A DNA stretch of 64,000 nt from positions 28,804 through 92,803 of the forward strand of contig JANPHP010000034.1 in assembly GCA_031424495.1 (NCBI GenBank), in the 5' to 3' direction. Under the pieces are notes generated by a model. It saw nothing but the letters and a program-made list of their open reading frames with translations, did no database searches and was not told the DNA's origin. Positions 48,323 through 58,150 of this stretch are shown here, piece after piece. The first letter of the stretch is position 1. Every line of letters begins with the position of its first letter. The DNA is from Bacteroidota bacterium. GTDB lineage: Bacteria; Bacteroidota; Bacteroidia; J057; JADKCL01. The translations under genes were made by a program, and so were the position numbers.

Positions 48323-48784
48323 ATGTCGAATTCTGGGCTTTCCATTCACTCCGATGAGCATTATATGCGGCAGGCAATTGCGCAGGCCGAGCAGGCTTTT
48401 GCCGAGGACGAGGTACCCATCGGGGCCATCGTCGTCTGCAACAACCGCATCATCGGGCGCGGCTACAACCAAGTCGAGCGCTTGCACGACGCCACGGCCC
48501 ACGCCGAGATGCTCGCCATCACGGCCGCCAGCGAATTTCTGGGCAGCAAATACCTCGAGGGCTGTACGCTGTATGTGACCATCGAGCCTTGCCCCATGTG
48601 CGCGGGCGCGCTCCGGTGGGTGCAGCTCGAGCGCGTCGTGTATGGCGCGGGCGAAAGCAAATTTGGCTACACGCGCTTCGGTCCAGAGATGCTGCATCCC
48701 AAGACCGAAGTGATCCACGGCATCTTGGAGCAGGAATGCCGCCAACTGATGCGCACATTTTTTCAAAACAAGCGCAATTCATGA
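48323..48784 (+). CDS. tadA: tRNA-specific adenosine deaminase
   Basis: CDA zinc motifs HAEMLAI and PCPMCAGAL. Confidence 0.9.
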   Translation: MSNSGLSIHSDEHYMRQAIAQAEQAFAEDEVPIGAIVVCNNRIIGRGYNQVERLHDATAHAEMLAITAASEFLGSKYLEGCTLYVTIEPCPMCAGALRWVQLERVVYGAGESKFGYTRFGPEMLHPKTEVIHGILEQECRQLMRTFFQNKRNS

Positions 48785-49674
48785 ACGCCATTCCCGCCAG
48801 ACCTAGCGCCCTTGCTTGGTTTCTGCTGATATTTTTGGCCGTCCTCTGGGGCAGCTCCTTCATCTTGATGCTCCGCGGATTGGAGGGCGGCTTCAATGCC
48901 CTCGAACTCGCAGCGATCCGCATGGGGGTGGCGGCGGTTTGCCTGTCGCCCTTCCTCATCAAATATGCCCGCACGATCACCCTGCGTGATTGGGGTTTGC
49001 TCGCTGCGATCGGCTTGCTCGGCAATGCCATCCCCGCCTACCTCTTCGCGCAGTCCGAGACCCAACTGCCCACCGCCGTTGTCGGGGTGCTCAACTCCCT
49101 GTCGCCGATTTTTACCTTGATCATCGGGTTCCTCTTTTTCCAGATGCGCACCCCCCTCAAGAACGGCATCGGCGTCATGCTGGGCTTCACAGGCGCGACC
49201 ATCCTCGCGCTCGCAGGCAGCAAACCCACCGAAGTCGGCACCAACCTCAACTTCTCGCTGCTCGTCGTCGCCGCCACCTTGTGTTATGGCATCAGCACCA
49301 ACCTGATCAAGAACTACTTTGCCGGCCGCAATCCGCTCATGATCGCGACCATCGCGCTCTCCACCGTCGGCTGGCCCGCGCTGCTCTTTCTGTTCATCGG
49401 GACAGACTTCATGACCAAAGTCCAAACCAATCCCGCCGCACCGATGGGCTTGTTTTACATCATCATCCTCGGCGCGCTGGGCACAGCCTTCGGCGTCGCA
49501 CTCTTCAACAAACTCTTGCAGATCAGCTCGATTATCTTCGCCACCTCAGTCACTTACCTCATCCCGATCGTCGCGGTGGTATGGGGGATTTTTTTGGAGG
49601 AAGCCCTGACGGAGTGGCATGGGCTGGGGTTTTTGGTGATCTTGGCGGGGGTTTGGTTGGCTAATCGGAAGTGA
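48781..49674 (+). CDS. EamA/DMT-family transporter
   Basis: ATG overlaps the tadA stop (ATGA). 10 TM helices in two EamA repeats. Confidence 0.75.
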   Translation: MNAIPARPSALAWFLLIFLAVLWGSSFILMLRGLEGGFNALELAAIRMGVAAVCLSPFLIKYARTITLRDWGLLAAIGLLGNAIPAYLFAQSETQLPTAVVGVLNSLSPIFTLIIGFLFFQMRTPLKNGIGVMLGFTGATILALAGSKPTEVGTNLNFSLLVVAATLCYGISTNLIKNYFAGRNPLMIATIALSTVGWPALLFLFIGTDFMTKVQTNPAAPMGLFYIIILGALGTAFGVALFNKLLQISSIIFATSVTYLIPIVAVVWGIFLEEALTEWHGLGFLVILAGVWLANRK

Positions 49675-49800: not shown

Positions 49801-50034
49801 ATGGCATACGACCTTCAATCTGAAAGGGAACTACTTGCAAAACGAATCTTGCTGATCGAAGACGTAAGGGTTTTGCATAAAATCCAGCTTTTTGTGGATC
49901 GAGAACTCCAAGTATTGGAGGAAGGGATTTCGATAGAGCAGTACAATGCTGAAATCGATCAAGCGGTTTGGGACATGAAAAATGGACTTGGCGTGTCACA
50001 TGAAGACCTGAAACGCGAAATAGAAAATTGGTGA
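49801..50034 (+). CDS. Small antitoxin-like protein (orphan paralog of 50142..50366)
   Basis: 77 aa. Shares the E..LLA…L…R.L pattern with the adjacent antitoxin. Confidence 0.4.
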   Translation: MAYDLQSERELLAKRILLIEDVRVLHKIQLFVDRELQVLEEGISIEQYNAEIDQAVWDMKNGLGVSHEDLKREIENW

Positions 50035-50141: not shown

Positions 50142-50366
50142 ATGAAAGTCATAGAAGCTGATTTCGTGCTGCAGAAAAATGAGACCGCACAACTGATTCT
50201 TGCGATGCACGACCGCGAGTTGCTTGCAAGAGTCCGTGCAATCCTGATGACTCCTGAACCCATCTCCCAAGCTGACCTCGATGCCATAGACAAGAGCATC
50301 GCCGCCTGCAATGCGGGAGCAGGGACACCTTTGGAAGAATACCTCAAAGAGCTCGATGCGCTGTGA
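50142..50366 (+). CDS. Type II antitoxin (partner of ParE/RelE toxin)
   Basis: 74-aa ORF whose stop overlaps the toxin ATG (ATGA). Confidence 0.55.
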   Translation: MKVIEADFVLQKNETAQLILAMHDRELLARVRAILMTPEPISQADLDAIDKSIAACNAGAGTPLEEYLKELDAL

Positions 50367-50641
50367 TTTACAAAGTGATCGTGTCTCCTTCGGCCATGGT
50401 CGAATTTCGAGAGATTCATGCCTACGTAAAGCAACGATTCGGCAAGTCTTCATCGGAGCGGCTGAAACGTTCCTATAAACTGTTCCTCAAAGCGCTTACG
50501 AAACATCCCCTCCAATACGAAGAGGTTCCAGAACGAATAGGGGTACGGAAATGTGCCGCCATGGCTCCGACACTGGTCTATTACAAAGTGGATGGCAAGG
50601 TTGTGACCGTTCTCAGAATTCAAGATGGTCGTCAGGGTTGA
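50363..50641 (+). CDS. ParE/RelE-family type II toxin
   Basis: 92 aa. MIYKVIVSPSAMVEFREIHAYV … RIGVRKCAAM..TLVYYKVDGKVVTVLRI matches ParE/RelE layout. Confidence 0.65.
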   Translation: MIYKVIVSPSAMVEFREIHAYVKQRFGKSSSERLKRSYKLFLKALTKHPLQYEEVPERIGVRKCAAMAPTLVYYKVDGKVVTVLRIQDGRQG

Positions 50642-50776
50642 CTAAGCTTTGGTGGAAATATCATCATCTCCTTAGTATTTGCGATTGGGGGACCGCTACC
50701 AACCGATGAAACCAGTCGCCTTCATGAACCACAATACCCACTGACATCTCCCCAAAATTTTCTCTATTTTTGAATC

Positions 50777-51352
50777 ATGGGAAATCCAGAACCGATCGTC
50801 CAATACACGCCGGAGGAATACCTCAAACTGGAACATGCCGCCGCGTACAAAAATGAGTATTACAACGGCATGATCTTGCCGATGGAAAGCCATACTTTCA
50901 ATCAAAACATGGTCTCGATGGATTGCTACTTCGCAATCAATGCAGCGCTGAACCGTGCGGAATGGACGCCTGTTGGAAGCATCGTGAAAATCAGGATCGA
51001 CGAACCGATGACCTATTTCTATCCAGAAATGGCGGTCGTGAAAGGCAAGCCCCAACTCAAAGACAATAAATATTCCTATACCAACCCGACCCTTATCGTC
51101 GAGGTGCTTGCGGAATGGAGCGAAGCTTTTGACCGTGGCAAGAAATTTCACCGCTACAAGCTCATTCCGACGTTTCAAGAGTACGTTTTGGTTTCCAAAG
51201 ACGAGTACCAAGCCGAGGTCTTTTACAAGCTCAATGAGGCTGACTGGCAATACACTAGCTATGAGGGACTTGAAGCTGTGATGGAACTGCGCTCCCTCGG
51301 CATCCAAGTGAAGCTTTCGGAAATCTATCAACGTGTGGAATTTGAACTTTGA
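50777..51352 (+). CDS. Uma2-family (DUF820) putative endonuclease, copy 1
   Basis: …YYNGMI…E…D…YFY…P.LIVEVLS…D…K…Y…I.EY.LV… pattern of the PD-(D/E)xK Uma2 family. 58% identical to 53379..53948. Confidence 0.7.
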   Translation: MGNPEPIVQYTPEEYLKLEHAAAYKNEYYNGMILPMESHTFNQNMVSMDCYFAINAALNRAEWTPVGSIVKIRIDEPMTYFYPEMAVVKGKPQLKDNKYSYTNPTLIVEVLAEWSEAFDRGKKFHRYKLIPTFQEYVLVSKDEYQAEVFYKLNEADWQYTSYEGLEAVMELRSLGIQVKLSEIYQRVEFEL

Positions 51353-51382
51353 TGTGCCAGTAATACAAAAATCATTACCCCC

Positions 51383-51631
51383 ATGAAAATCTCATCCAAC
51401 CTCCTCCACGCCATCCTCATCGCCGCAACGGTCGCCGCGACCACTGCCTGCGATTCGCCAGCCACAGCCGCTGAAACCAAAACCGAGTCACCGATTCAGC
51501 CAGTGAAAGCAAAGGATACCCTCGCCACCAAAAAGGCAAGCCCAAGCGTGACTCCCCAAGATCCAGACACGGTCAAAGGGCCAACGCAGGTCCACGATCC
51601 GCGCAACTGCCCCGCCTGCGGCAAGGGCTGA
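51383..51631 (+). CDS. RiPP precursor-like peptide 1 (signal peptide + C-terminal CPACGKG)
   Basis: MKISSNLLHAILIAATVAATTAC signal/lipobox. Pro/Thr/Lys-rich core. Ends …VHDPRNCPACGKG*. Confidence 0.6.
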   Translation: MKISSNLLHAILIAATVAATTACDSPATAAETKTESPIQPVKAKDTLATKKASPSVTPQDPDTVKGPTQVHDPRNCPACGKG

Positions 51632-51699
51632 AGCGCCATCGTCTCCCAATGATCCGCATTCCACCCAATTCCAATGCCTGAATTCAGCATCCCAATCCC

Positions 51700-51864
51700 A
51701 TGAAACTACCATCCACCCTCCTCACCGCCATGCTCATCTCCGCAACCGTCGGCGTCGCCTGCGGATGCAAGACAGCCAAGGATCACGGCAATAAAAAGAA
51801 CGACCCCCCTCACAAAATTCACAAACCCACGGGAGACGATTGCCCGGGATGTGGCATGGGCTAG
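51700..51864 (+). CDS. RiPP precursor-like peptide 2 (signal peptide + C-terminal CPGCGMG)
   Basis: 54-aa ORF missed by the >=60-aa track: MKLPSTLLTAMLISATVGVACGC…HKIHKPTGDDCPGCGMG*. Confidence 0.6.
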   Translation: MKLPSTLLTAMLISATVGVACGCKTAKDHGNKKNDPPHKIHKPTGDDCPGCGMG

Positions 51865-51949
51865 GCCACCCGCAGAAATTTTGCATCGATTCCAACCCAT
51901 TGCCCGGCTGCTGCATCAAACCCATATCATTCACCAAAATCGTATTGTC

Positions 51950-52156
51950 ATGAAAATTTCATCCAATCTCCTCGGCGCAATGGTACTCTGCGCAACCCTC
52001 GGCGCTGTGACGAGTAGCTGCACGACCACCAAAGTCCAAACCGACGACATCAAAAACTCCGAAAAAGGCGGCGCCGTGAACGAGGGCCTCAGTGGCAAGA
52101 TTCACAACCTCTTCTCGCCCCGTCCCGACCCCTGCCCGACCTGCGGCATGGGCTGA
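51950..52156 (+). CDS. RiPP precursor-like peptide 3 (signal peptide + C-terminal CPTCGMG)
   Basis: Internal ATG at 51950: MKISSNLLGAMVLCATLGAVTSSC…NLFSPRPDPCPTCGMG*. Confidence 0.6.
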   Translation: MKISSNLLGAMVLCATLGAVTSSCTTTKVQTDDIKNSEKGGAVNEGLSGKIHNLFSPRPDPCPTCGMG

Positions 52157-52168
52157 GCCGCTTGATCC

Positions 52169-53311
52169 ATGTCTGAAATCCACGCTTCGTTGTCATTCAA
52201 CCTCGATGTCGGCCTCATACAGGCTGCGCTGCCGCTGTTTGCGGCCGAGGAAGTCGAGGCTTTGGAGTGGTCATTTGACACACTCTTCCAGCAGCCCGAG
52301 CTGCCGGATTGGTTTTTGGAGCTGCTGCAGACCTACGGCGATGTAGGACGACTCGTCGGGCACGGGGTCTTTTTTTCTCTGTTTTCGGGGAAATGGCTGC
52401 CTGAGCAGGCGGCTTGGTTGCGGGAACTCCGCGACCTGACGCAGCGTTTTCGCTTCGATCACATCAGCGAGCATTTTGGCTTTTTGACAGGTTCTGATTT
52501 CCACAAGGGCGCGCCCCTGTCTGTGCCCTACAATGCGCAGACGCTGGCGATCGGGCGCGACCGCCTCATGCGCATCGCGGAGGCCAGCGGCTGCCCGGTC
52601 GGTTTGGAAAACCTCGCCTTTGCCAGCAGCACGCAAGCTGCACAGGTGCATGGCGAATTTCTGGAAGCACTGCTGGCGCCCGTGAATGGCTTCGTGATCC
52701 TGGACTTGCACAACCTCTATTGTCAGCTCCACAATTTTGGGCTGGATGCGGCCGAAATGCTGGCGGCTTTTCCGCTGGCGCGGGTGCGCGAGATCCATAT
52801 CTCGGGCGGCAGTTGGGAATCCTCGGCGCATCGCCCGCACCCGGGCGTGCGGCGCGACACGCATGACGATCGCGTGCCCGAGGAGGTGTTTGCGCTGCTT
52901 GCAGATGCGATGCCCCGCTGCCCCAACCTCAAATTTGTGGTGCTGGAGCACATGGGTTTTGCATTGGCCACCGAGCAGACACAAAGTTATTACCGCGATG
53001 ATTTCAGGCGGATGCGGGCGCTCGTGCATGCGGAGAAAGCGCGGCGCAATACGACCACGCATTCACCCACGACCAATCTATTCTTGCCGCCGTCGCTTAA
53101 TCTGGGAACAGCGCCGCTGGAAGACGCGTCCCTCCATCAACAACAACAAATCCTCTCCGACATCCTGGAAACAAGCGAGTCGCTCGCGGCAGTCCAATCT
53201 GCGATCAGACATTCGCCCCTCGCCGACACGGATTGGGACATTGCGACTTGGGACCCGGCGATGCTGGAGACGGCGTGGCTCATTGCAAGGAAGTGGCGGG
53301 ATGGGTTTTGA
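52169..53311 (+). CDS. DUF692 / multinuclear non-heme iron oxidase (MbnB/ChrH-like) with ~90-aa C-terminal extension
   Basis: TIM-barrel DUF692 blocks in order: LEWSFDTLF, LVGHGVFFSL, FDHISEHFGF, VGLENLAF, VILDLHNLY, REIHISGG…VRRDTHDD. Extra C-terminal ~90 aa (…LHQQQQILSDILETSESLAAVQSAI…) is not part of the core. Confidence 0.75.
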   Translation: MSEIHASLSFNLDVGLIQAALPLFAAEEVEALEWSFDTLFQQPELPDWFLELLQTYGDVGRLVGHGVFFSLFSGKWLPEQAAWLRELRDLTQRFRFDHISEHFGFLTGSDFHKGAPLSVPYNAQTLAIGRDRLMRIAEASGCPVGLENLAFASSTQAAQVHGEFLEALLAPVNGFVILDLHNLYCQLHNFGLDAAEMLAAFPLARVREIHISGGSWESSAHRPHPGVRRDTHDDRVPEEVFALLADAMPRCPNLKFVVLEHMGFALATEQTQSYYRDDFRRMRALVHAEKARRNTTTHSPTTNLFLPPSLNLGTAPLEDASLHQQQQILSDILETSESLAAVQSAIRHSPLADTDWDIATWDPAMLETAWLIARKWRDGF

Positions 53312-53378
53312 GGGGATGTAAATCCTCAGCTGAAAGGGCTATTTGCCAAATCAGCCCAAATCTCCTATTTTTAATTCC

Positions 53379-53948
53379 ATGGGGAATCACACGGTCGCAG
53401 AATATCTGGCGCTAGAGGAAGTGGCAGAATACAGAAGCGAATATTTCGAAGGCGAGATATTTGCAATGGCTGGGGCTACAGGTGAGCACAACCTGATCGC
53501 AAAGGAGTGTAGTCGGGCGATAGACGATGCTGCGGAGGGCAGCGGCTGCCAAACCGTGCTGCTCGATATGAAGGTGAGGATCGAAGGCTCGAGTGCCTAT
53601 TACTATCCAGACATTGCGGTTGTATGCGACAAGTTCCAGTATGAAGATGAAAAACGTCAAATTCTCAAGAACCCGCTCATCATCATCGAGGTGCTCTCCG
53701 ATTCCACCGAAGCCCAGGACCGTGGCAGCAAGTTTCATCGGTACAAGCAGATTTCATCGCTGCGCGAGTATGTTTTGATTTCCCAAAAGGAACCACAGAT
53801 CGATGTCTTTTTCAAAATGAATGACGACAGTTGGCGACTGGACAGCTATGCTGGACTCGATGCCAAGATGGAATTGCGCTCACTCGGCATTCATGTCAAA
53901 CTCGCTGACATTTATCGCCGGGTGGAGTTTGCCGCGCAAGGATCTTGA
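53379..53948 (+). CDS. Uma2-family (DUF820) putative endonuclease, copy 2
   Basis: Start at MGNHTVAEYLALEE aligns with the copy-1 N-terminus. Shared C-terminus MELRSLGI.VKL..IY.RVEF. Confidence 0.7.
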   Translation: MGNHTVAEYLALEEVAEYRSEYFEGEIFAMAGATGEHNLIAKECSRAIDDAAEGSGCQTVLLDMKVRIEGSSAYYYPDIAVVCDKFQYEDEKRQILKNPLIIIEVLSDSTEAQDRGSKFHRYKQISSLREYVLISQKEPQIDVFFKMNDDSWRLDSYAGLDAKMELRSLGIHVKLADIYRRVEFAAQGS

Positions 53949-53949
53949 C

Positions 53950-54030
53950 CGGCCTCTCCCTAGATCTCCTCACTCACTCTCCACACTCACACTGATCCAC
54001 CGGATCTCCGCACTCACACTGATCCACGGA
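53950..54030. repeat. Short tandem repeat (cactcacactgatccacYggatctcc x2-3)
   Basis: Direct 24-26-bp units downstream of the Uma2 copy-2 stop. Confidence 0.5.
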
Positions 54031-54421
54031 TCTCCTGGCATAATTCCACCAAGACGCCATTCGTATCCTTGGGATGCAGGAAAAAAATGAGCTTGTTGTC
54101 GGCGCCGCGCTTGGGCTGCTCGTTCAGGACACGGTAGCCCTCGCCTTTCATGCGCTCCATCGCGGCATAGATGTCGGGCACCTCAAAGGCGATGTGGTGC
54201 ATGCCTTCGCCGCGCTTCTCGATGTGCTTGGCGATGGCACTTTCTGGGCTTGTGGCTTGGAGCAATTCGATCTTGCTGTCGGCGAGTTGGAAAAATGAGA
54301 CATCGACATGCTCGCTCTCGACGTGCTCGTCTTTGTAGGGCGGCTGCCCGAAGATGGCGGAGAACAGTGCCTTGCTTTTGGCGAGGTCTTGGACTGCGAT
54401 GCCTATGTGTTCGATTTTCAT
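54014..54421 (-). CDS. Methylmalonyl-CoA epimerase / VOC-family (glyoxalase-like) protein
   Basis: 135 aa. MKIEHIGIAVQDL…HHIAFEV…GVLVEL pattern of MCE/VOC metal-binding modules. Confidence 0.75.
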   Translation of the reverse strand: MKIEHIGIAVQDLAKSKALFSAIFGQPPYKDEHVESEHVDVSFFQLADSKIELLQATSPESAIAKHIEKRGEGMHHIAFEVPDIYAAMERMKGEGYRVLNEQPKRGADNKLIFFLHPKDTNGVLVELCQEIRGSV

Positions 54422-54565
54422 TGTGGCGAGGAGGTAGAAATTAGGAATGAGAAATTAGGAATTAGCATGGGGAGGTAGCAGGTAGTAGGTAGTAGGTAGC
54501 AGTTGCGGGAGTAGCTAGCCACTCTTGCAATTGCACATTTCTAATTGCTAATTCCTCATTCCCCC
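54421..54565. promoter_or_regulatory. Divergent promoter region with inverted GGAATGAG-RAATTAG repeats and GGTAGYAG tandem
   Basis: ggaatgagaaattaggaattagca (54437-54460) vs its near-inverse aattgctaattcctcattcc (54538-54557). ggtagcaggtagtaggtagtaggtagcag sits between them. Lies between mce (-) and epimerase (+). The same GAAATTAG motif recurs x3 at 58905-58930. Confidence 0.35.
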
Positions 54566-54597
54566 TCCTTTCATCCAAAACAACTAATTTCGCGGAT

Positions 54598-55596
54598 ATG
54601 TTGCAACGTGAGATTTTGGTGACGGGTGCTGCGGGCTATGTGGGCTCGGTTTTGTGTCGGCAATTGCTGGGGCTGGGCTATCGCGTGCGTGGATTGGATA
54701 TTTTGTTGTTTGGGGATGCAGGGTTGGCGGATTTGTCGCAGAATGAAAATTTCAGCTTTCTCCAGGGAGATTTGTGCGATGCAAAGGTGCGCAAGCAGGC
54801 TTTGGTGAATGTGCAAGCCGTGATTCATCTCGCCGCCATTGTGGGCGATCCTGCCTGCAAGTTGTTCCCCGAAGCGGCCACGGCCTTGATGGATGTAGCG
54901 AGCCGGGCCTTGTTTGAGGAAGCCGAATTGGCAGGCGTGGAGCGGTTTGTATTCGCGAGTACATGCAGCAACTATGGGCAAATGGATGGGCAGGATTTGT
55001 TGAATGAAGATTCGCCCCTGCAACCCCAAAGCCACTACGCGCGCTTAAAGGTCGGTTTTGAGGAGTTTTTGTTGGGCAGAAACGCAAGTTCGGCGCAGCC
55101 AATGAAGGACAGCCCAGTCGCAATCAGCATCCTGCGCTTCGCGACCGCCTACGGCTTGTCGCCCCGCATGCGGTTTGACCTCACGGTCAACCACTTCACG
55201 CGCGACCTCGCGCTGGACCGCGAATTGCTTGTCTTCGGGCAGCACCAATGGCGGCCCTATTGCCACGTCGCAGACTTGGCAATGGCACTCACACTGGCGC
55301 TCAAGCTCCCGCATTCCCCAAAACCCGAAATCTTCAACATCGGCGACAGCCAAGAAAACTACAGCAAGGCCATGATCGTCGACGAAGTGTTGCGACAAGT
55401 GCCCGCCGGCAAGGTCGCCTACGGCAACCAAGCCGACACCGATACCCGCAACTACCGCGTAGACTTCGCCAAAGCCGCCCAGCAGCTAGGCTTCCAAATC
55501 ACCCACCGCGTCCCAGACGGCATCCATGAAATCCAAGCAGCACTAGCCGCCCAAAAATGGAAAGACCCATTCGCCAAAACCCACGAAAACTGCTGA
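54598..55596 (+). CDS. NAD-dependent epimerase/dehydratase (SDR family)
   Basis: VTGAAGYVGSVL Rossmann motif, YxxxK region (…HYARLK…). Confidence 0.8.
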   Translation: MLQREILVTGAAGYVGSVLCRQLLGLGYRVRGLDILLFGDAGLADLSQNENFSFLQGDLCDAKVRKQALVNVQAVIHLAAIVGDPACKLFPEAATALMDVASRALFEEAELAGVERFVFASTCSNYGQMDGQDLLNEDSPLQPQSHYARLKVGFEEFLLGRNASSAQPMKDSPVAISILRFATAYGLSPRMRFDLTVNHFTRDLALDRELLVFGQHQWRPYCHVADLAMALTLALKLPHSPKPEIFNIGDSQENYSKAMIVDEVLRQVPAGKVAYGNQADTDTRNYRVDFAKAAQQLGFQITHRVPDGIHEIQAALAAQKWKDPFAKTHENC

Positions 55597-55642
55597 AAAA
55601 ATGGAACCCAAAATCGTTTTCTGGCGGCCAAAGCAAAAATGG

Positions 55643-55697
55643 CCACCCAAAATTCAACCCCAAAAGTGATTCTGTAAATTCTGAGAATTCTGATCTG
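55643..55697. repeat. GAATTCTG-family ~55-bp intergenic repeat element
   Basis: ccacccaaaattcaaccccaaaagtgattctgtaaattctgagaattctgatctg, directly abutting the GTG start of the DegT-family gene. Confidence 0.55.
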
Positions 55698-56833
55698 TGA
55701 TACAGCTCTCCATCCCCAACATCTCCGAGACCGAGCAAATGTCGGTGGCGCGTGCCATTGAGTCGGGCTGGGTCTCCACCGCCGGACCCGACATCGGCGA
55801 CTTTGAGCGCAAGATTGCCGCACTTTCGGGCGTGCGCTTCGCGATCGCCCTCAACAGCGGCAGTGCGGCCCTGCACCTGGCCCTGCTTGCACTTGGCGTC
55901 CAAAAAAACGACTTCGTCATCTGCCCCAACCTGAGTTTTGTCGCCACCGCCAATGCCGTGCTGCATGCGGGCGCAGAGCCGATCCTGATCGACACAGCGC
56001 GCGACAACCTGCAGCTCGACCTGGACTTGCTCGAGGAATTCCTGCGCGACCAAACGGAATTTACCGATGGGCAATGCTTTTTCAAAGGCACGCACCGGCC
56101 CATCCGCGCGATCGTTGCCGTGCATGTGCTGGGCGACTTTTGCGACATGGACCGCCTGCTGGAGCTGGCTCGGAGTCGCGGCATCGCTGTCTTGGAGGAT
56201 GCAGCGGCAGCAGTCGGCGCGAGCTATGACGGCAAGCCCGCAGGCAGCATGGGCCTCATGGGCACGCTGAGCTTCAACGGCAACAAAATCATGACCACCG
56301 GCGGCGGCGGCGCCGTGCTCACCAACGACGCCCGATTAGCCGACCACGTGCGCCACCTGGCGCACCAAGCCAAGTCATTCCCCTTGGAATACATCCACGA
56401 TGCCGCCGCATTCAATTACGGCATGCCCAACCTCAACGCGGCATTCGGCCTCGGGCAGCTCGCCCGCCTACCCGAGTTCTGGATCGCGAAACAAGCCATC
56501 CGCACCGAATACGAAGCCGGCTTCATCGACATTCGTGCCCTCACGCTCGCGCCGCATGGCGACCTCAAGCGCCACTGCGGCTACTGGCTCAACTGCGTTT
56601 TCACATCCGAAGCCCGCCAACTCGAAGCCTACCTCGAAGCCAACGAGATCCAGACCCGCAAACTTTGGGTGCCCATGAATCGCCTGCCGATGTATGCGCA
56701 ATGCCTGTACTTGCAGCACGATGACCACAGCCACCGATGGTATGAGGAGTCGCTCTGCCTGCCGTCGTCGACGGGGCTGAGCGACGATGATCTGGCTTTT
56801 GTGATCAAGACTGTGCGGGCATTTTTTGAGTGA
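55697..56833 (+). CDS. DegT/DnrJ/EryC1/StrS-family PLP-dependent sugar aminotransferase
   Basis: N-terminal …SGWVSTAGP…FE…, …DAAAAVGASY.GK..G… PLP-lysine region. GTG start. Confidence 0.8.
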   Translation: MIQLSIPNISETEQMSVARAIESGWVSTAGPDIGDFERKIAALSGVRFAIALNSGSAALHLALLALGVQKNDFVICPNLSFVATANAVLHAGAEPILIDTARDNLQLDLDLLEEFLRDQTEFTDGQCFFKGTHRPIRAIVAVHVLGDFCDMDRLLELARSRGIAVLEDAAAAVGASYDGKPAGSMGLMGTLSFNGNKIMTTGGGGAVLTNDARLADHVRHLAHQAKSFPLEYIHDAAAFNYGMPNLNAAFGLGQLARLPEFWIAKQAIRTEYEAGFIDIRALTLAPHGDLKRHCGYWLNCVFTSEARQLEAYLEANEIQTRKLWVPMNRLPMYAQCLYLQHDDHSHRWYEESLCLPSSTGLSDDDLAFVIKTVRAFFE

Positions 56834-56878: not shown

Positions 56879-58150
56879 TTGAATAGTATCCCGATGAAAA
56901 TCACTTTCCTTCTGCTGCTACTTTTCTGCCTGACTGGCTTTCGCCTTTTTGCGCAGTCGGATACACCTTGCAATGCGCCGATCATGACCGTGAGCGCCGA
57001 CAGTTGCCACTATGCCTGGGGCACTACGGTCGGGGCGCAATACCAAAATGACACCGCCAATGGCCTGAGCCCGGCCTGTGCTTCACCAGGCGCAGCCGAT
57101 GTTTGGTACCGTTTCATCGTGCCGCCGAGCGGTGCGGTTGCTATCACCACCTTGGAAGGCACGATTACCGACGGCGGCATGGCCTTGTACAGCGGTCCCT
57201 GCTCGGCCCCACAATTTGTACAATGCGAGGACGACAATGGCGTGAACATGATGCCTGTCATCGATCGTTCAGACCTCACGCCCGGCGACACGATGCTGGT
57301 GCGCGTTTGGTATGGCTGGCACCCCAACACGACCGGCACATTCAGGATTTGTTTCGTAGAGTCCAACTCTGACTGTGTCGTCGCCACGCCGCTCTGCCAG
57401 GAAAGGTATTATTACACCCACGCCTACGGGCCTGGCTCCCACCTCGACGCGAATGGCACGCAGTGCGATATCTATGAATACCAGTCCCAATGGTTCAAAT
57501 GGAAGATTTTGACATCGGGCACGCTCTCGTTCACAATTTTGCCCGACTCGATCGGCCCAGCAAACTGGCCTGACTGGGACTGGCTTTTGTACCAGACCAC
57601 AGATTCCATCTTCTGCACGCATTTCGTGGGCGGCAATCAGCCCTTTGCCTGCAACGGCAGTTCATCGGCAGGTCCTTATGGGGCCACTGGCCTGAACGCC
57701 ACGGGTACAAGCAATAGCGTGCCCGCAGGACCTGGAAATCCCTATTGCCCGCTGATCAATGCCGTAGCTGGCGAGTATTATTATCTCATGCTCAACAACT
57801 TCAACGTCTCCTCTTCTGGATTCAGAATCCATCTCGGTGGCTCTGCGGTCTTGGATTGTGATATTGTAAATCCGCCGACGGCTGTCGTCGCGCAGCAGCC
57901 CATTTCCAAAGTGGTGGTGTCTCCCAATCCTGCAAACGATTGGGTATCGATCACCGTGAATGGCCTCACAAACGATGACCATCCCGCTTTACGCATCGTC
58001 GATGTGCATGGAAAGTTCGTTCTGGTGGAGACAGCTTTTGAAAACGGCACCTTCCGCATGAATCTGCAAAACTTGGCTCCGGGGATGTATTTCTTCGAGG
58101 TTCGGTCAGATCTGGGCGAATTGCAACGCGGCAAATTTTTGAAGCGTTGA
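56879..58150 (+). CDS. Secreted Cys-rich protein with T9SS C-terminal sorting domain
   Basis: Signal peptide (…LLLLFCLTGFRLFAQS). C-terminal …VSPNPANDWVSITVNGL…GMYFFEVRS… Por CTD. Confidence 0.65.
   Translation: MNSIPMKITFLLLLLFCLTGFRLFAQSDTPCNAPIMTVSADSCHYAWGTTVGAQYQNDTANGLSPACASPGAADVWYRFIVPPSGAVAITTLEGTITDGGMALYSGPCSAPQFVQCEDDNGVNMMPVIDRSDLTPGDTMLVRVWYGWHPNTTGTFRICFVESNSDCVVATPLCQERYYYTHAYGPGSHLDANGTQCDIYEYQSQWFKWKILTSGTLSFTILPDSIGPANWPDWDWLLYQTTDSIFCTHFVGGNQPFACNGSSSAGPYGATGLNATGTSNSVPAGPGNPYCPLINAVAGEYYYLMLNNFNVSSSGFRIHLGGSAVLDCDIVNPPTAVVAQQPISKVVVSPNPANDWVSITVNGLTNDDHPALRIVDVHGKFVLVETAFENGTFRMNLQNLAPGMYFFEVRSDLGELQRGKFLKR

What the first reader, a model, noticed from the sequence alone, without database searches (positions are those of the whole stretch)
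51383..53311. Compact MNIO (DUF692) RiPP-like cluster: three signal-peptide precursors ending in CPxCG(M/K)G plus a fused-extension DUF692 enzyme
Three tandem small genes (82, 54 and 68 aa) share an N-terminal Sec/lipoprotein-type signal peptide (MKISSNLL.A.LIAATV...C). Each ends at its very C-terminus with a conserved Cys-Pro-x-Cys-Gly-(Met/Lys)-Gly motif: VHDPRNCPACGKG*, GDDCPGCGMG*, PDPCPTCGMG*. The 54-aa member is invisible to the 60-aa ORF cutoff. The next gene, 12 nt downstream, is a clear DUF692 TIM-barrel enzyme. That family includes MbnB, TglH and ChrH, which are multinuclear non-heme iron oxidases that chemically rewrite Cys residues of RiPP precursors. A terminal CPACGMG motif is, to my recollection, the substrate motif of the Chryseobacterium ChrA/ChrH/ChrI system. 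Here three divergent precursor copies, signal peptides implying export, and no separate partner (ChrI/MbnC/DUF2063-type) gene are present. Instead the DUF692 protein carries an extra ~90-aa C-terminal extension that could be a fused or minimal partner domain. No protease or transporter is adjacent. The signal-peptide plus lipobox-like Cys arrangement suggests a periplasmic or lipid-anchored modified peptide. That would be closer in logic to bufferin-type MNIO products than to cytoplasmic chr products, but with chr-type core motifs. This combination appears to be uncharacterised.
Basis: partly seen in the sequence, partly recalled or inferred. Interest (0 to 1): 0.9.

Follow-up and report, generated by a model that had tools for sequence, protein, structure and literature searches.

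The report
Lipoprotein-type chryseobasin-like RiPP gene cluster
Three small lipoprotein-like peptide genes ending in CPxCGxG sit directly before an iron-dependent oxidase of the ChrH/DybH family, making this a real but already described kind of cluster for membrane-anchored, ring-modified peptides ("DAG-RiPPs", published 2025-2026), here with an unusually large set of three precursor genes.

Summary
Three + strand genes (82, 54 and 68 aa) each have a lipoprotein-type signal peptide and end in CPACGKG, CPGCGMG or CPTCGMG. A 380-aa MNIO (DUF692) gene follows 12 nt downstream.

The enzyme matches NCBIfam MNIO_ChrH over its full length, so the "extra" C-terminal ~85 aa belongs to the ChrH subfamily. 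AlphaFold2 models it as a small helical bundle behind a TIM barrel.

In 77 of 82 related loci from Bacteroidota genomes, a lipobox + CxxCGxG peptide gene lies next to the MNIO gene.

This architecture is the DybA/DybH system of Chen et al. (bioRxiv Nov 2025; PNAS 2026). There a partner-independent MNIO makes a −4 Da macrocycle plus hydantoin at CPxCGxG. The lipoprotein pathway then adds diacylglycerol and an N-acyl chain.

The local feature not mentioned in that paper is a lineage-specific array of 2-4 divergent, conserved precursor paralogs (three here), including a Lys-containing core (CPACGKG).

Verdict: a new member of a known kind, of modest interest.

The parts
51383..51631 (+). Precursor 1 (82 aa, 'type A'). 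Signal peptide is aa 1-22 and the lipobox is TTAC, with Cys23 at 51449-51451. A long Pro/Ser/Thr/Ala-rich spacer follows. The core CPACGKG is at 51608-51628.
   Evidence: NF050125 ChrA_rel_RiPP scores 39.9 bits against a cutoff of 40. The lipobox rule is passed. Orthologs occur in L082 (90 aa), L002 (85 aa) and L084 (84 aa).
51700..51864 (+). Precursor 2 (54 aa, 'type B', short and basic). The signal peptide ends in VACGC. Cys23 (51766-51768) aligns with the family's invariant lipobox Cys; Cys21 is an alternative. The core CPGCGMG is at 51841-51861.
   Evidence: NF050125 scores 43.0 bits, above the cutoff of 40. The alignment places Cys23 in the invariant column. Orthologs occur in L082, L001 (TTG start) and L085.
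51950..52156 (+). Precursor 3 (68 aa, 'type C'). The lipobox is TSSC, with Cys24 at 52019-52021. A conserved GKIHNLF motif lies about 10 aa before the core. The core CPTCGMG is at 52133-52153.
   Evidence: NF050125 scores 31.9 bits, below the cutoff. 68-aa orthologs occur in L082, L001, L002, L084 and L085, with the signal and C-terminal parts conserved and the middle variable.
52169..53311 (+). MNIO (DUF692) enzyme of the ChrH/DybH subfamily, 380 aa, with no signal peptide. The TIM barrel is aa 1-~265 (52169-52963), followed by a long helix (aa 269-295) and a linker (aa 296-319).
   Evidence: PF05114 2.3e-31. NF050165 MNIO_ChrH 1.5e-104, covering aa 9-377. AF2 pLDDT 90.1 and pTM 0.91. Foldseek best hits are TglH 8hci at 3.7e-13 and MbnB 7fc0/7tcr. 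TglH alignment keeps H65, E147, D179/H181/N182, H210, D230/H232 and E260, all invariant in homologs.
53126..53299 (+). C-terminal helical-bundle domain of the MNIO (aa 320-377).
   Evidence: Helices at aa 320-335, 339-347, 350-353 and 363-377 in the AF2 model. There are 17 invariant positions across 18-20 homologs. No Pfam, PDB-sequence or PDB-fold relative was found. It corresponds to the ~7.8 kDa helical bundle described for all ChrH-family enzymes (PMC13056109).

Best explanation
This is a DybA/DybH-type 'DAG-RiPP' operon, i.e. a chryseobasin-related lipoprotein RiPP cluster, from an uncultured Bacteroidota lineage.

Proposed mechanism:
1. The three precursors are translated with SPII-type signal peptides.
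2. In the cytoplasm the signal-less MNIO acts without a partner protein, using its fused C-terminal helical bundle. It recognises the C-terminal CxxCGxG and uses O2 and its 2-3 iron site for a four-electron oxidation.
3. That oxidation links the first Cys sulfur to the β-carbon of the second Cys to form a macrocycle. It rearranges the backbone into a hydantoin and leaves a thiohemiaminal thiol (net −4 Da).
4. The modified peptides are exported by Sec. Lgt adds diacylglycerol to the lipobox Cys, LspA cleaves the signal peptide, and Lnt N-acylates the new N-terminus.
5. The products would be three triacylated lipopeptides of about 60, 32 and 45 residues. They share one warhead type on different spacers, one of them with Lys in place of Met next to the heterocycle.

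Shown here: the gene anatomy, family membership, fold, lipobox, conserved synteny and absence of a partner gene.

Inferred by homology: the chemistry, the lipidation and the order of steps.

Unknown, as for the whole family: final localisation and physiological function.
For: Enzyme family:
- The best family hit is MNIO_ChrH, full length, at 349.9 bits. BufB scores 93, HvfB 73.5, ApyH 39.7 and MbnB 21.4.
- The enzyme is 52-59% identical to homologs in Dyadobacter, Hymenobacter, Spirosoma, Fluviicola, Chitinophagaceae and Saprospiraceae. These include the three genera whose enzymes (DybH, HymH, ChsH) were shown to make the −4 Da product without a partner (PMC13056109).

Structure:
- The model shows a TIM barrel plus a C-terminal helical bundle at high confidence.
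- TglH and MbnB are the nearest solved folds.
- Residues that align with TglH's conserved His/Glu/Asp/Asn positions (presumed metal ligands) are retained and invariant.

Precursors:
- The peptides hit NF050125.
- 77 of 82 loci carry at least one peptide ending in CxxCGxG next to the MNIO gene. 87 of 97 such peptides pass the lipobox rule.
- The lipobox Cys, both core Cys and both Gly are the only invariant columns among the clade's precursors.

Context:
- No partner, protease or transporter gene lies within about five genes on either side.
- Gaps of 68, 85 and 12 nt on one strand fit a single operon.
Against: - No experiment bears on this particular enzyme or these peptides.
- The enzyme lies on a long separate branch, at most 59% identical to any named genus.
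- Two of the three cores (CPACGKG, CPTCGMG) are variants that the paper did not test.
- SignalP was not available. SPII assignment rests on a pattern rule, and precursor 2 has two candidate Cys residues.
- Two of the three peptides score below the NF050125 cutoff.
- Whether the product is S-methylated cannot be read from sequence. ChrAH and ArlAH are methylated; DybAH, ChsAH and HymAH are not.
Confidence: 0.85

Rival explanations
1. The architecture is the same, but the enzyme makes the S-methylated chryseobasin-type product (+10 Da, as with ChrH) rather than the free-thiol −4 Da product.
For: The best NCBIfam hit is the ChrH model. ChrAH and, in part, ArlAH give methylated products on the same motif, and the determinant of methylation is not understood (PMC13056109).
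Against: The score of 349.9 is far below the ChrH equivalog cutoff of 600. All three tested non-Chryseobacterium Bacteroidota systems with lipobox precursors gave only −4 Da. The enzyme groups with those genera at 52-59% identity.
Confidence: 0.1
2. The peptides are modified by the MNIO but are secreted through signal peptidase I as soluble periplasmic or extracellular peptides, and are not lipidated.
For: ChrA and MelA1 use SPI signals. Precursor 2 has an atypical A-C-G-C / G-V-A-C lipobox. One relative (L080) lacks the Cys altogether.
Against: All three peptides satisfy the PS51257-type rule. The Cys after the hydrophobic region is invariant across all paralogs in the clade and is present in 87 of 97 family peptides passing the rule. 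Such invariance is hard to explain if the residue were only part of a cleaved or unstructured region. DybA lipidation was shown directly.
Confidence: 0.05
3. A bufferin- or oxazolin-like system: the Cys residues are converted to thiooxazole or oxazolone-thioamide groups that chelate copper.
For: Bufferin and oxazolin subsets also carry lipoprotein signals. The MNIO has weaker hits to BufB and HvfB models.
Against: BufB scores 93 bits (cutoff 310) and HvfB 73.5 (cutoff 360), against ChrH at 349.9. No DUF2063/BufC partner is adjacent. The peptides have no DUF2282, BUF_6/12Cys or EGKCG features (and the sequences). The C-terminal bundle is a ChrH-subfamily hallmark.
Confidence: 0.03
4. Chance adjacency: the small ORFs are ordinary or non-functional lipoprotein genes, and the MNIO acts on something else.
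For: None beyond the absence of direct experimental data for this locus.
Against: The motif occurs 3 times here against 0 in shuffles. Synteny holds in 77 of 82 loci across several Bacteroidota families. Orthologous paralog types are kept across genomes whose MNIOs are only 66-87% identical.
Confidence: 0.01

Closest known systems
DybA/DybH (Dyadobacter crusticola) and relatives ChsAH and HymAH: 'DAG-RiPPs', i.e. lipidated chryseobasin-like peptides (Chen, Zhu, Zhang, Berthold, van der Donk, PNAS 2026; PMC13056109)
   Same: - Short precursors with an SPII signal, an invariant lipobox Cys and a C-terminal CPxCGxG.
- Precursor gene(s) directly upstream of a ~375-385 aa MNIO that has a C-terminal helical bundle and no signal peptide.
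- No partner protein gene and a minimal BGC.
- Bacteroidota host.
- 54-59% identity to same-genus homologs of the characterised enzymes.
   Different: - There are three divergent precursors instead of one. In the survey 60 of 82 loci have one, 15 have two, and only this window (3), L082 (4) and L001 (3 when its TTG-start gene is counted) have more.
- The untested core variants CPACGKG (cationic) and CPTCGMG are present.
- One precursor has a 50-residue Pro/Ser/Thr-rich spacer.
- One precursor carries an extra conserved GKIxxLF motif.
- The enzyme sits on a separate long branch with unnamed MAGs.
- No SusC/D or peptidase genes are nearby.
ChrA/ChrH/ChrI chryseobasin cluster of Chryseobacterium (Ayikpoe et al., ACS Cent Sci 2023; PMC10214503)
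   Same: The MNIO subfamily is the same, including the C-terminal extension. The CPACGMG-type C-terminal core is the same, and so, presumably, is the macrocycle/hydantoin chemistry.
   Different: - ChrA is longer, uses an SPI signal and lacks the lipobox Cys.
- The chr operon also encodes ChrI (a DUF1772 membrane protein), ChrE and ChrP (an M42 peptidase). None of these is adjacent here.
- The ChrH product is S-methylated (+10 Da).
- The window's enzyme and peptides score below the ChrH and ChrA equivalog cutoffs.
MelA1/MelH/MelHc of Melainabacteria (same 2026 paper)
   Same: A CPACGMG terminus is modified by a ChrH-type MNIO, and the helical-bundle domain is required for activity.
   Different: There the bundle is a separate polypeptide, and the substrate is a 34-kDa TPR protein with an SPI signal. 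Here the bundle is fused and the substrates are small lipoproteins.
Lipoprotein-type bufferins and oxazolins (BufABC; NedABC)
   Same: An MNIO-modified Cys-containing peptide is routed through the lipoprotein pathway.
   Different: The MNIO subfamily differs, a DUF2063-type partner is obligatory, the core motifs differ and the chemistry differs (thiooxazole or oxazolone-thioamide, binding copper).

Membership tests
MNIO / DUF692 superfamily (PF05114) | Sequence match to PF05114 above the gathering score | tested here: met
   109.4 bits against a cutoff of 25, E 2.3e-31, aa 57-258.
MNIO / DUF692 superfamily (PF05114) | Xylose-isomerase-like TIM barrel closest to solved MNIOs, with the metal-ligand His/Glu/Asp/Asn positions retained | tested here: met
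   AF2 pLDDT 90.1. Foldseek: TglH 8hci 3.7e-13; MbnB 7fc0 and 7tcr about 1e-12. H65, E147, D179, H181, N182, H210, D230, H232 and E260 align with TglH and are invariant in 20 homologs. Assigning these positions as iron ligands rests on published MbnB/TglH structures, not on a test here.
ChrH subfamily of MNIOs (ChrH/DybH) | Best and full-length match to the ChrH profile rather than to other MNIO profiles | tested here: met
   NF050165 scores 349.9 bits over aa 9-377 (profile positions 7-361 of 363). The next best is BufB at 93 bits.
ChrH subfamily of MNIOs (ChrH/DybH) | Additional C-terminal helical bundle (~7.8 kDa) joined by a linker | tested here: met
   Helices at aa 320-377 follow the linker at aa 296-319. 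The domain is conserved in all 20 aligned homologs.
DybA/DybH-type DAG-RiPP (lipidated chryseobasin-related RiPP) | Precursor ends in CPxCGxG | tested here: met
   CPACGKG, CPGCGMG and CPTCGMG, each directly followed by a stop codon.
DybA/DybH-type DAG-RiPP (lipidated chryseobasin-related RiPP) | N-terminal SPII (lipoprotein) signal with a conserved lipobox Cys | tested here: met
   All three peptides pass a PS51257-style rule. The Cys is invariant in the clade alignment. SignalP 6.0, the predictor used in the paper, was not available.
DybA/DybH-type DAG-RiPP (lipidated chryseobasin-related RiPP) | Match to the NCBIfam precursor model NF050125 (ChrA_rel_RiPP) at its cutoff of 40 bits | tested here: inconclusive
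   Precursor 2 scores 43.0 (passes). Precursor 1 scores 39.9 and precursor 3 scores 31.9 (both below the cutoff, at E 5e-10 and 2e-7).
DybA/DybH-type DAG-RiPP (lipidated chryseobasin-related RiPP) | Minimal BGC: precursor immediately upstream of the MNIO, with no partner protein gene | tested here: met
   The last precursor ends 12 nt before the MNIO start. The neighbours are Uma2, ParE, EamA and glyoxalase, with no DUF2063, MbnC, TglI or DUF1772 gene.
DybA/DybH-type DAG-RiPP (lipidated chryseobasin-related RiPP) | −4 Da macrocycle plus hydantoin with a free thiol, and a triacylated N-terminal Cys | not testable with these tools
   Requires co-expression, mass spectrometry and NMR. Inferred from DybAH, ChsAH and HymAH (PMC13056109).
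Chryseobasin cluster sensu stricto (ChrA/ChrH/ChrI, Chryseobacterium) | ChrH equivalog score (NF050165, cutoff 600) and ChrA equivalog score (NF050124, cutoff 50) | tested here: not met
   The enzyme scores 349.9. The peptides score 21.3, no hit, and 12.1.
Chryseobasin cluster sensu stricto (ChrA/ChrH/ChrI, Chryseobacterium) | Operon partners ChrI (DUF1772), ChrE and ChrP (M42 peptidase) | tested here: not met
   None is present among the called genes within about 8 kb upstream and 5 kb downstream. The operon composition is taken from PMC10214503. The rest of the window was not scanned for these genes.
Bufferins (BufA/BufB/BufC) | BufB equivalog score (NF050167, cutoff 310), a DUF2063 partner, and a DUF2282 or BUF_6/12Cys precursor | tested here: not met
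   BufB scores 93 bits. No partner gene is adjacent. The peptides have no bufferin-type (DUF2282 / BUF_6/12Cys) Pfam hit; the only hit at E≤1 is a sub-threshold DUF2752 match on precursor 2.

The most novel reading that the evidence does not exclude
In this unnamed Bacteroidota lineage the DybAH system has expanded into a fixed set of 2-4 precursor paralog types, conserved across genomes whose MNIOs are only 66-87% identical. The types are a long PST-rich spacer (often with a cationic CPACG(K/R)G core), a short basic peptide, and a GKIxxLF-containing peptide.

The most novel reading not excluded is that one partner-less MNIO makes several functionally distinct membrane-anchored products. They would carry the same warhead held at different distances from the membrane or in different charge contexts. 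They would include a Lys/Arg-substituted hydantoin congener, and in sister genomes Pro-less rings (CQACGRG, CLMCGMG, CGLCGMG), none of which has been made or tested.
Probability: 0.3. Interest if true: 0.4.

Novelty: new member of a known kind. Interest (0 to 1): 0.28.

Why it matters
The cluster adds a divergent, multi-precursor example to the recently defined DAG-RiPP class.

- Three natural substrates for one enzyme, plus the Pro-less cores in sister genomes, form a ready-made test of DybH-type substrate tolerance at the x positions of CxxCGxG.
- The conserved paralog types suggest that spacer length and charge matter for the family's still unknown function.
- For annotation, only one of the three peptides reaches the NCBIfam cutoff, so such arrays will be under-called.

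The cluster does not reveal a new enzyme class, a new chemistry or a new export logic.

Tried and rejected
1. Sigma-70 promoter and intrinsic-terminator scan of 50600-54100: counts were no higher than in shuffles and nothing fell between the genes. It was uninformative, and Bacteroidota promoters are not covered by the scan.

2. Is the C-terminal extension a DUF2063, RRE or MbnC-like partner domain?
- No Pfam hit at E≤1.
- No PDB sequence hit with a profile; best E 1.9.
- No Foldseek PDB hit for the separately modelled domain; best E 2.3.
It was rejected as a known recognition fold. It is a family-specific helical bundle.

3. Are the flanking Uma2 genes part of the system? Uma2 copies lie next to the MNIO only in the nearest relatives (L082, L001, L003, L083). 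In two distant loci (L010, L033) weaker Uma2 homologs lie several kb from the MNIO, and the remaining distant loci have none. They were treated as lineage-specific neighbours.

4. The apparent N-terminal truncation of the type-B precursor in L001 was resolved: it has a TTG start and is a full 54 aa.

5. PDB sequence search for a solved ChrH or DybH found none. Only TglH and the 3bww DUF692 protein were hit.

6. Not obtained: the actual ChrH, DybH, ChsH and HymH sequences. Identities are therefore quoted to same-genus homologs only.
Full report
**Observation**

The + strand of 51383-53311 carries three small ORFs followed by a 380-aa ORF.
- 51383-51631: 82 aa, ending CPACGKG.
- 51700-51864: 54 aa, ending CPGCGMG.
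- 51950-52156: 68 aa, ending CPTCGMG.
- 52169-53311: the 380-aa ORF, starting 12 nt after the third stop codon.

The DNA pattern encoding C-P-x-C-G-x-G-stop occurs three times in the 64-kb window, only at these genes, and never in 100 shuffles. An independent gene caller had called all three peptides on the same contig. The exact sequences are in the public protein collection, unnamed.

**The enzyme**

Pfam places aa 57-258 in PF05114 MbnB_TglH_ChrH at 2.3e-31.

NCBIfam gives a full-length match to NF050165 MNIO_ChrH: 1.5e-104, 349.9 bits, aa 9-377 on profile positions 7-361 of 363. This is far above BufB (93), HvfB (73.5), ApyH (39.7) and MbnB (21.4). It is below the ChrH equivalog cutoff of 600. 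The protein is therefore a ChrH-subfamily member but not ChrH itself, and the 'extra' C-terminus is part of the subfamily's profile.

An AlphaFold2 model built on 20 homologs is confident (pLDDT 90.1, pTM 0.91). It shows:
- a TIM barrel at aa 1-~265;
- a long helix at aa 269-295;
- a linker at aa 296-319;
- a small helical bundle at aa 320-377.

Foldseek's best PDB hits are TglH (8hci, 3.7e-13) and MbnB (7fc0, 7tcr). The phmmer alignment to TglH keeps H65, E147, D179/H181/N182, H210, D230/H232 and E260. All of these are invariant in the homolog alignment.

The C-terminal bundle is strongly conserved, with 17 invariant positions. It has no Pfam match, no PDB sequence match and no PDB fold match. 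It is therefore not an RRE-, MbnC- or DUF2063-like domain.

**The peptides**

All three peptides hit NCBIfam NF050125, 'chryseobasin-related MNIO class RiPP peptide', at 43.0, 39.9 and 31.9 bits against a cutoff of 40. They score much lower, or not at all, on the ChrA model NF050124.

Each peptide has an MK n-region and a hydrophobic stretch. Each has a Cys that satisfies a PROSITE PS51257-style lipobox rule: Cys23, Cys21 or Cys23, and Cys24. In precursor 2, Cys23 is the residue that aligns with the invariant column.

**Comparative evidence**

A homolog search found more than 2,000 relatives, and the 120 best listed are nearly all about 375-385 aa long.

A genome scan returned 80 loci from Saprospiraceae, Fluviicola, Dyadobacter, Spirosoma, Hymenobacter, Chitinophagaceae and other Bacteroidota, at 52-59% identity. 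Three unnamed MAGs were closer, at 71-82%.

In 77 of 82 loci, a signal-peptide ORF ending in CxxCGxG lies next to the MNIO gene. 87 of 97 such peptides pass the lipobox rule. CPACGMG (60) and CPGCGMG (14) dominate the cores.

The number of precursors per locus is:
- one in 60 loci;
- two in 15 loci;
- three in the window;
- four in L082.

The window's enzyme forms a separate long branch with L082, L001 and L002. In that clade, including four further metagenomic relatives, every locus has 2-4 precursors. They fall into recurring paralog types:
- Type A: a long Pro/Ser/Thr-rich spacer, often with a K or R before the last Gly. This is window precursor 1.
- Type B: short and basic. This is window precursor 2.
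- Type C: 68 aa, with G[KR][IV]xx[LI]F about 10 residues before the core. This is window precursor 3.
- Type D: related to type C and absent from the window.

The chromosomal position is conserved in the clade: deaminase-EamA ... cluster ... glyoxalase-epimerase-DegT. The array is therefore inherited vertically rather than being a recent insertion.

**What it is**

This anatomy is the system described by Chen et al. (PMC13056109; preprint Nov 2025, PNAS March 2026). That paper reports the following.
- In Cyanobacteria that bundle is a separate protein, MelHc, which is required for activity.
- Non-Chryseobacterium Bacteroidota precursors are short, end in CPxCGxG and contain a third, invariant Cys that is the lipobox Cys of an SPII signal.
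- Their BGCs usually consist of only a precursor and an MNIO, with no partner gene.
- DybH (Dyadobacter), ChsH (Chitinophaga) and HymH (Hymenobacter) each install a −4 Da macrocycle plus hydantoin with a free thiol.
- DybH was also active without a partner protein in vitro, and DybA becomes triacylated through the lipoprotein pathway in E. coli.
- ChrI was found to be dispensable even for ChrH.

The most likely mechanism here is therefore cytoplasmic oxidation of the three C-terminal heptapeptides by the single MNIO, followed by Sec export and Lgt/LspA/Lnt processing. This would give three lipopeptides of about 60, 32 and 45 residues.

The anatomy is shown by the sequence and by the comparisons above. 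The chemistry, the lipidation and the order of steps are inferred by homology. The function is unknown for the whole family.

**Rivals**
- An S-methylated ChrH-like product cannot be excluded from sequence. All tested lipobox-type systems were unmethylated.
- Export through SPI without lipidation is unlikely, given the invariant Cys.
- A bufferin-type chemistry is contradicted by the profile scores and the missing partner gene.
- Chance adjacency is excluded by the synteny survey.

The description and most of the reasoning hold, namely:
- the MNIO assignment;
- the ChrA-type core;
- the lipoprotein-type signal;
- the fused accessory domain;
- the absence of a partner gene.

The conclusion that the combination is uncharacterised does not hold. 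The extension is also a family-wide feature rather than a peculiarity of this gene. ChrA itself is secreted, so the contrast drawn with 'cytoplasmic chr products' is wrong.

**Novelty and interest**

This is a new member of a known kind. Two features are not mentioned in the paper's main text, which was term-searched for 'multiple precursor', 'two precursor' and 'copies' without any hit and read through the Discussion:
- the conserved multi-precursor array of this lineage;
- the core variants: CPACGKG and CPTCGMG here, and Pro-less CQACGRG, CLMCGMG and CGLCGMG in sister genomes.

These are useful as natural substrate-scope probes, but they are not surprising to a specialist. Interest is about 0.28.

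Noticed in passing
window 50777-51352 (+) and 53379-53948 (+): Two Uma2-family (PF05685, putative restriction endonuclease) paralogs, 46% identical to each other, bracket the cluster. One to three tandem Uma2 copies sit next to the MNIO in the nearest relatives (L082, L001, L003, L083). In two distant loci (L010, L033) weaker Uma2 homologs lie several kb away, and the other distant loci have none.
   Followed up: partly
window 50142-50641 (+): A ParE-family toxin gene (50363-50641, PF05016) overlaps by 4 nt a 74-aa ORF (50142-50366) with no Pfam hit, which is probably its antitoxin. A further 77-aa ORF lies at 49801-50034. Similar toxin-antitoxin-like pairs lie upstream of the cluster in L001.
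   Followed up: partly
L082 4292-5044; L001 5175-5989: Sister genomes carry precursors whose cores lack the 'conserved' Pro: CQACGRG and CLMCGMG in L082, and CGLCGMG in L001. More distant loci have CAACGMG, CSSCGMG, CTACGMG and CLGCGMG. The truly invariant pattern is therefore CxxCGxG.
   Followed up: partly
window 52094-52114 (GKIHNLF in precursor 3); L082, L001, L002, L083-L085: Type C and D precursors share a conserved amphipathic motif, G[KR][IV]xx[LI]F, about 10 residues upstream of the core. It is absent from DybA-like single precursors. It could be an extra recognition or function element.
   Followed up: no
L002 7243-7500; L084 5244-5498: In two relatives the long type-A precursor (CPACGKG) lies downstream of the MNIO gene rather than upstream. 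In L084 the region is overlapped by an antisense gene call that is probably spurious.
   Followed up: no
L080 5814-5978: A MAG labelled Akkermansiaceae (Verrucomicrobiota) carries a DybH-type MNIO (56% identical) with a CPGCGMG precursor. Its signal peptide lacks the lipobox Cys (…TTVSAAEKP…). This could be horizontal transfer, mis-binning, or an SPI-type variant.
   Followed up: no
window 56879-58150 (+): A 423-aa protein with a T9SS C-terminal sorting domain (PF18962). Together with similar domains upstream on the same contig, it marks the source organism as Bacteroidota. No named genus is closer than about 59% for the MNIO.
   Followed up: partly
window 48323-49674 and 54014-56833: The chromosomal frame around the cluster is dCMP/tRNA-type deaminase and an EamA transporter upstream, with glyoxalase (− strand), NAD-dependent epimerase and a DegT-type aminotransferase downstream. 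This frame is conserved in all clade members examined, while the genes between the frame and the cluster vary.
   Followed up: partly
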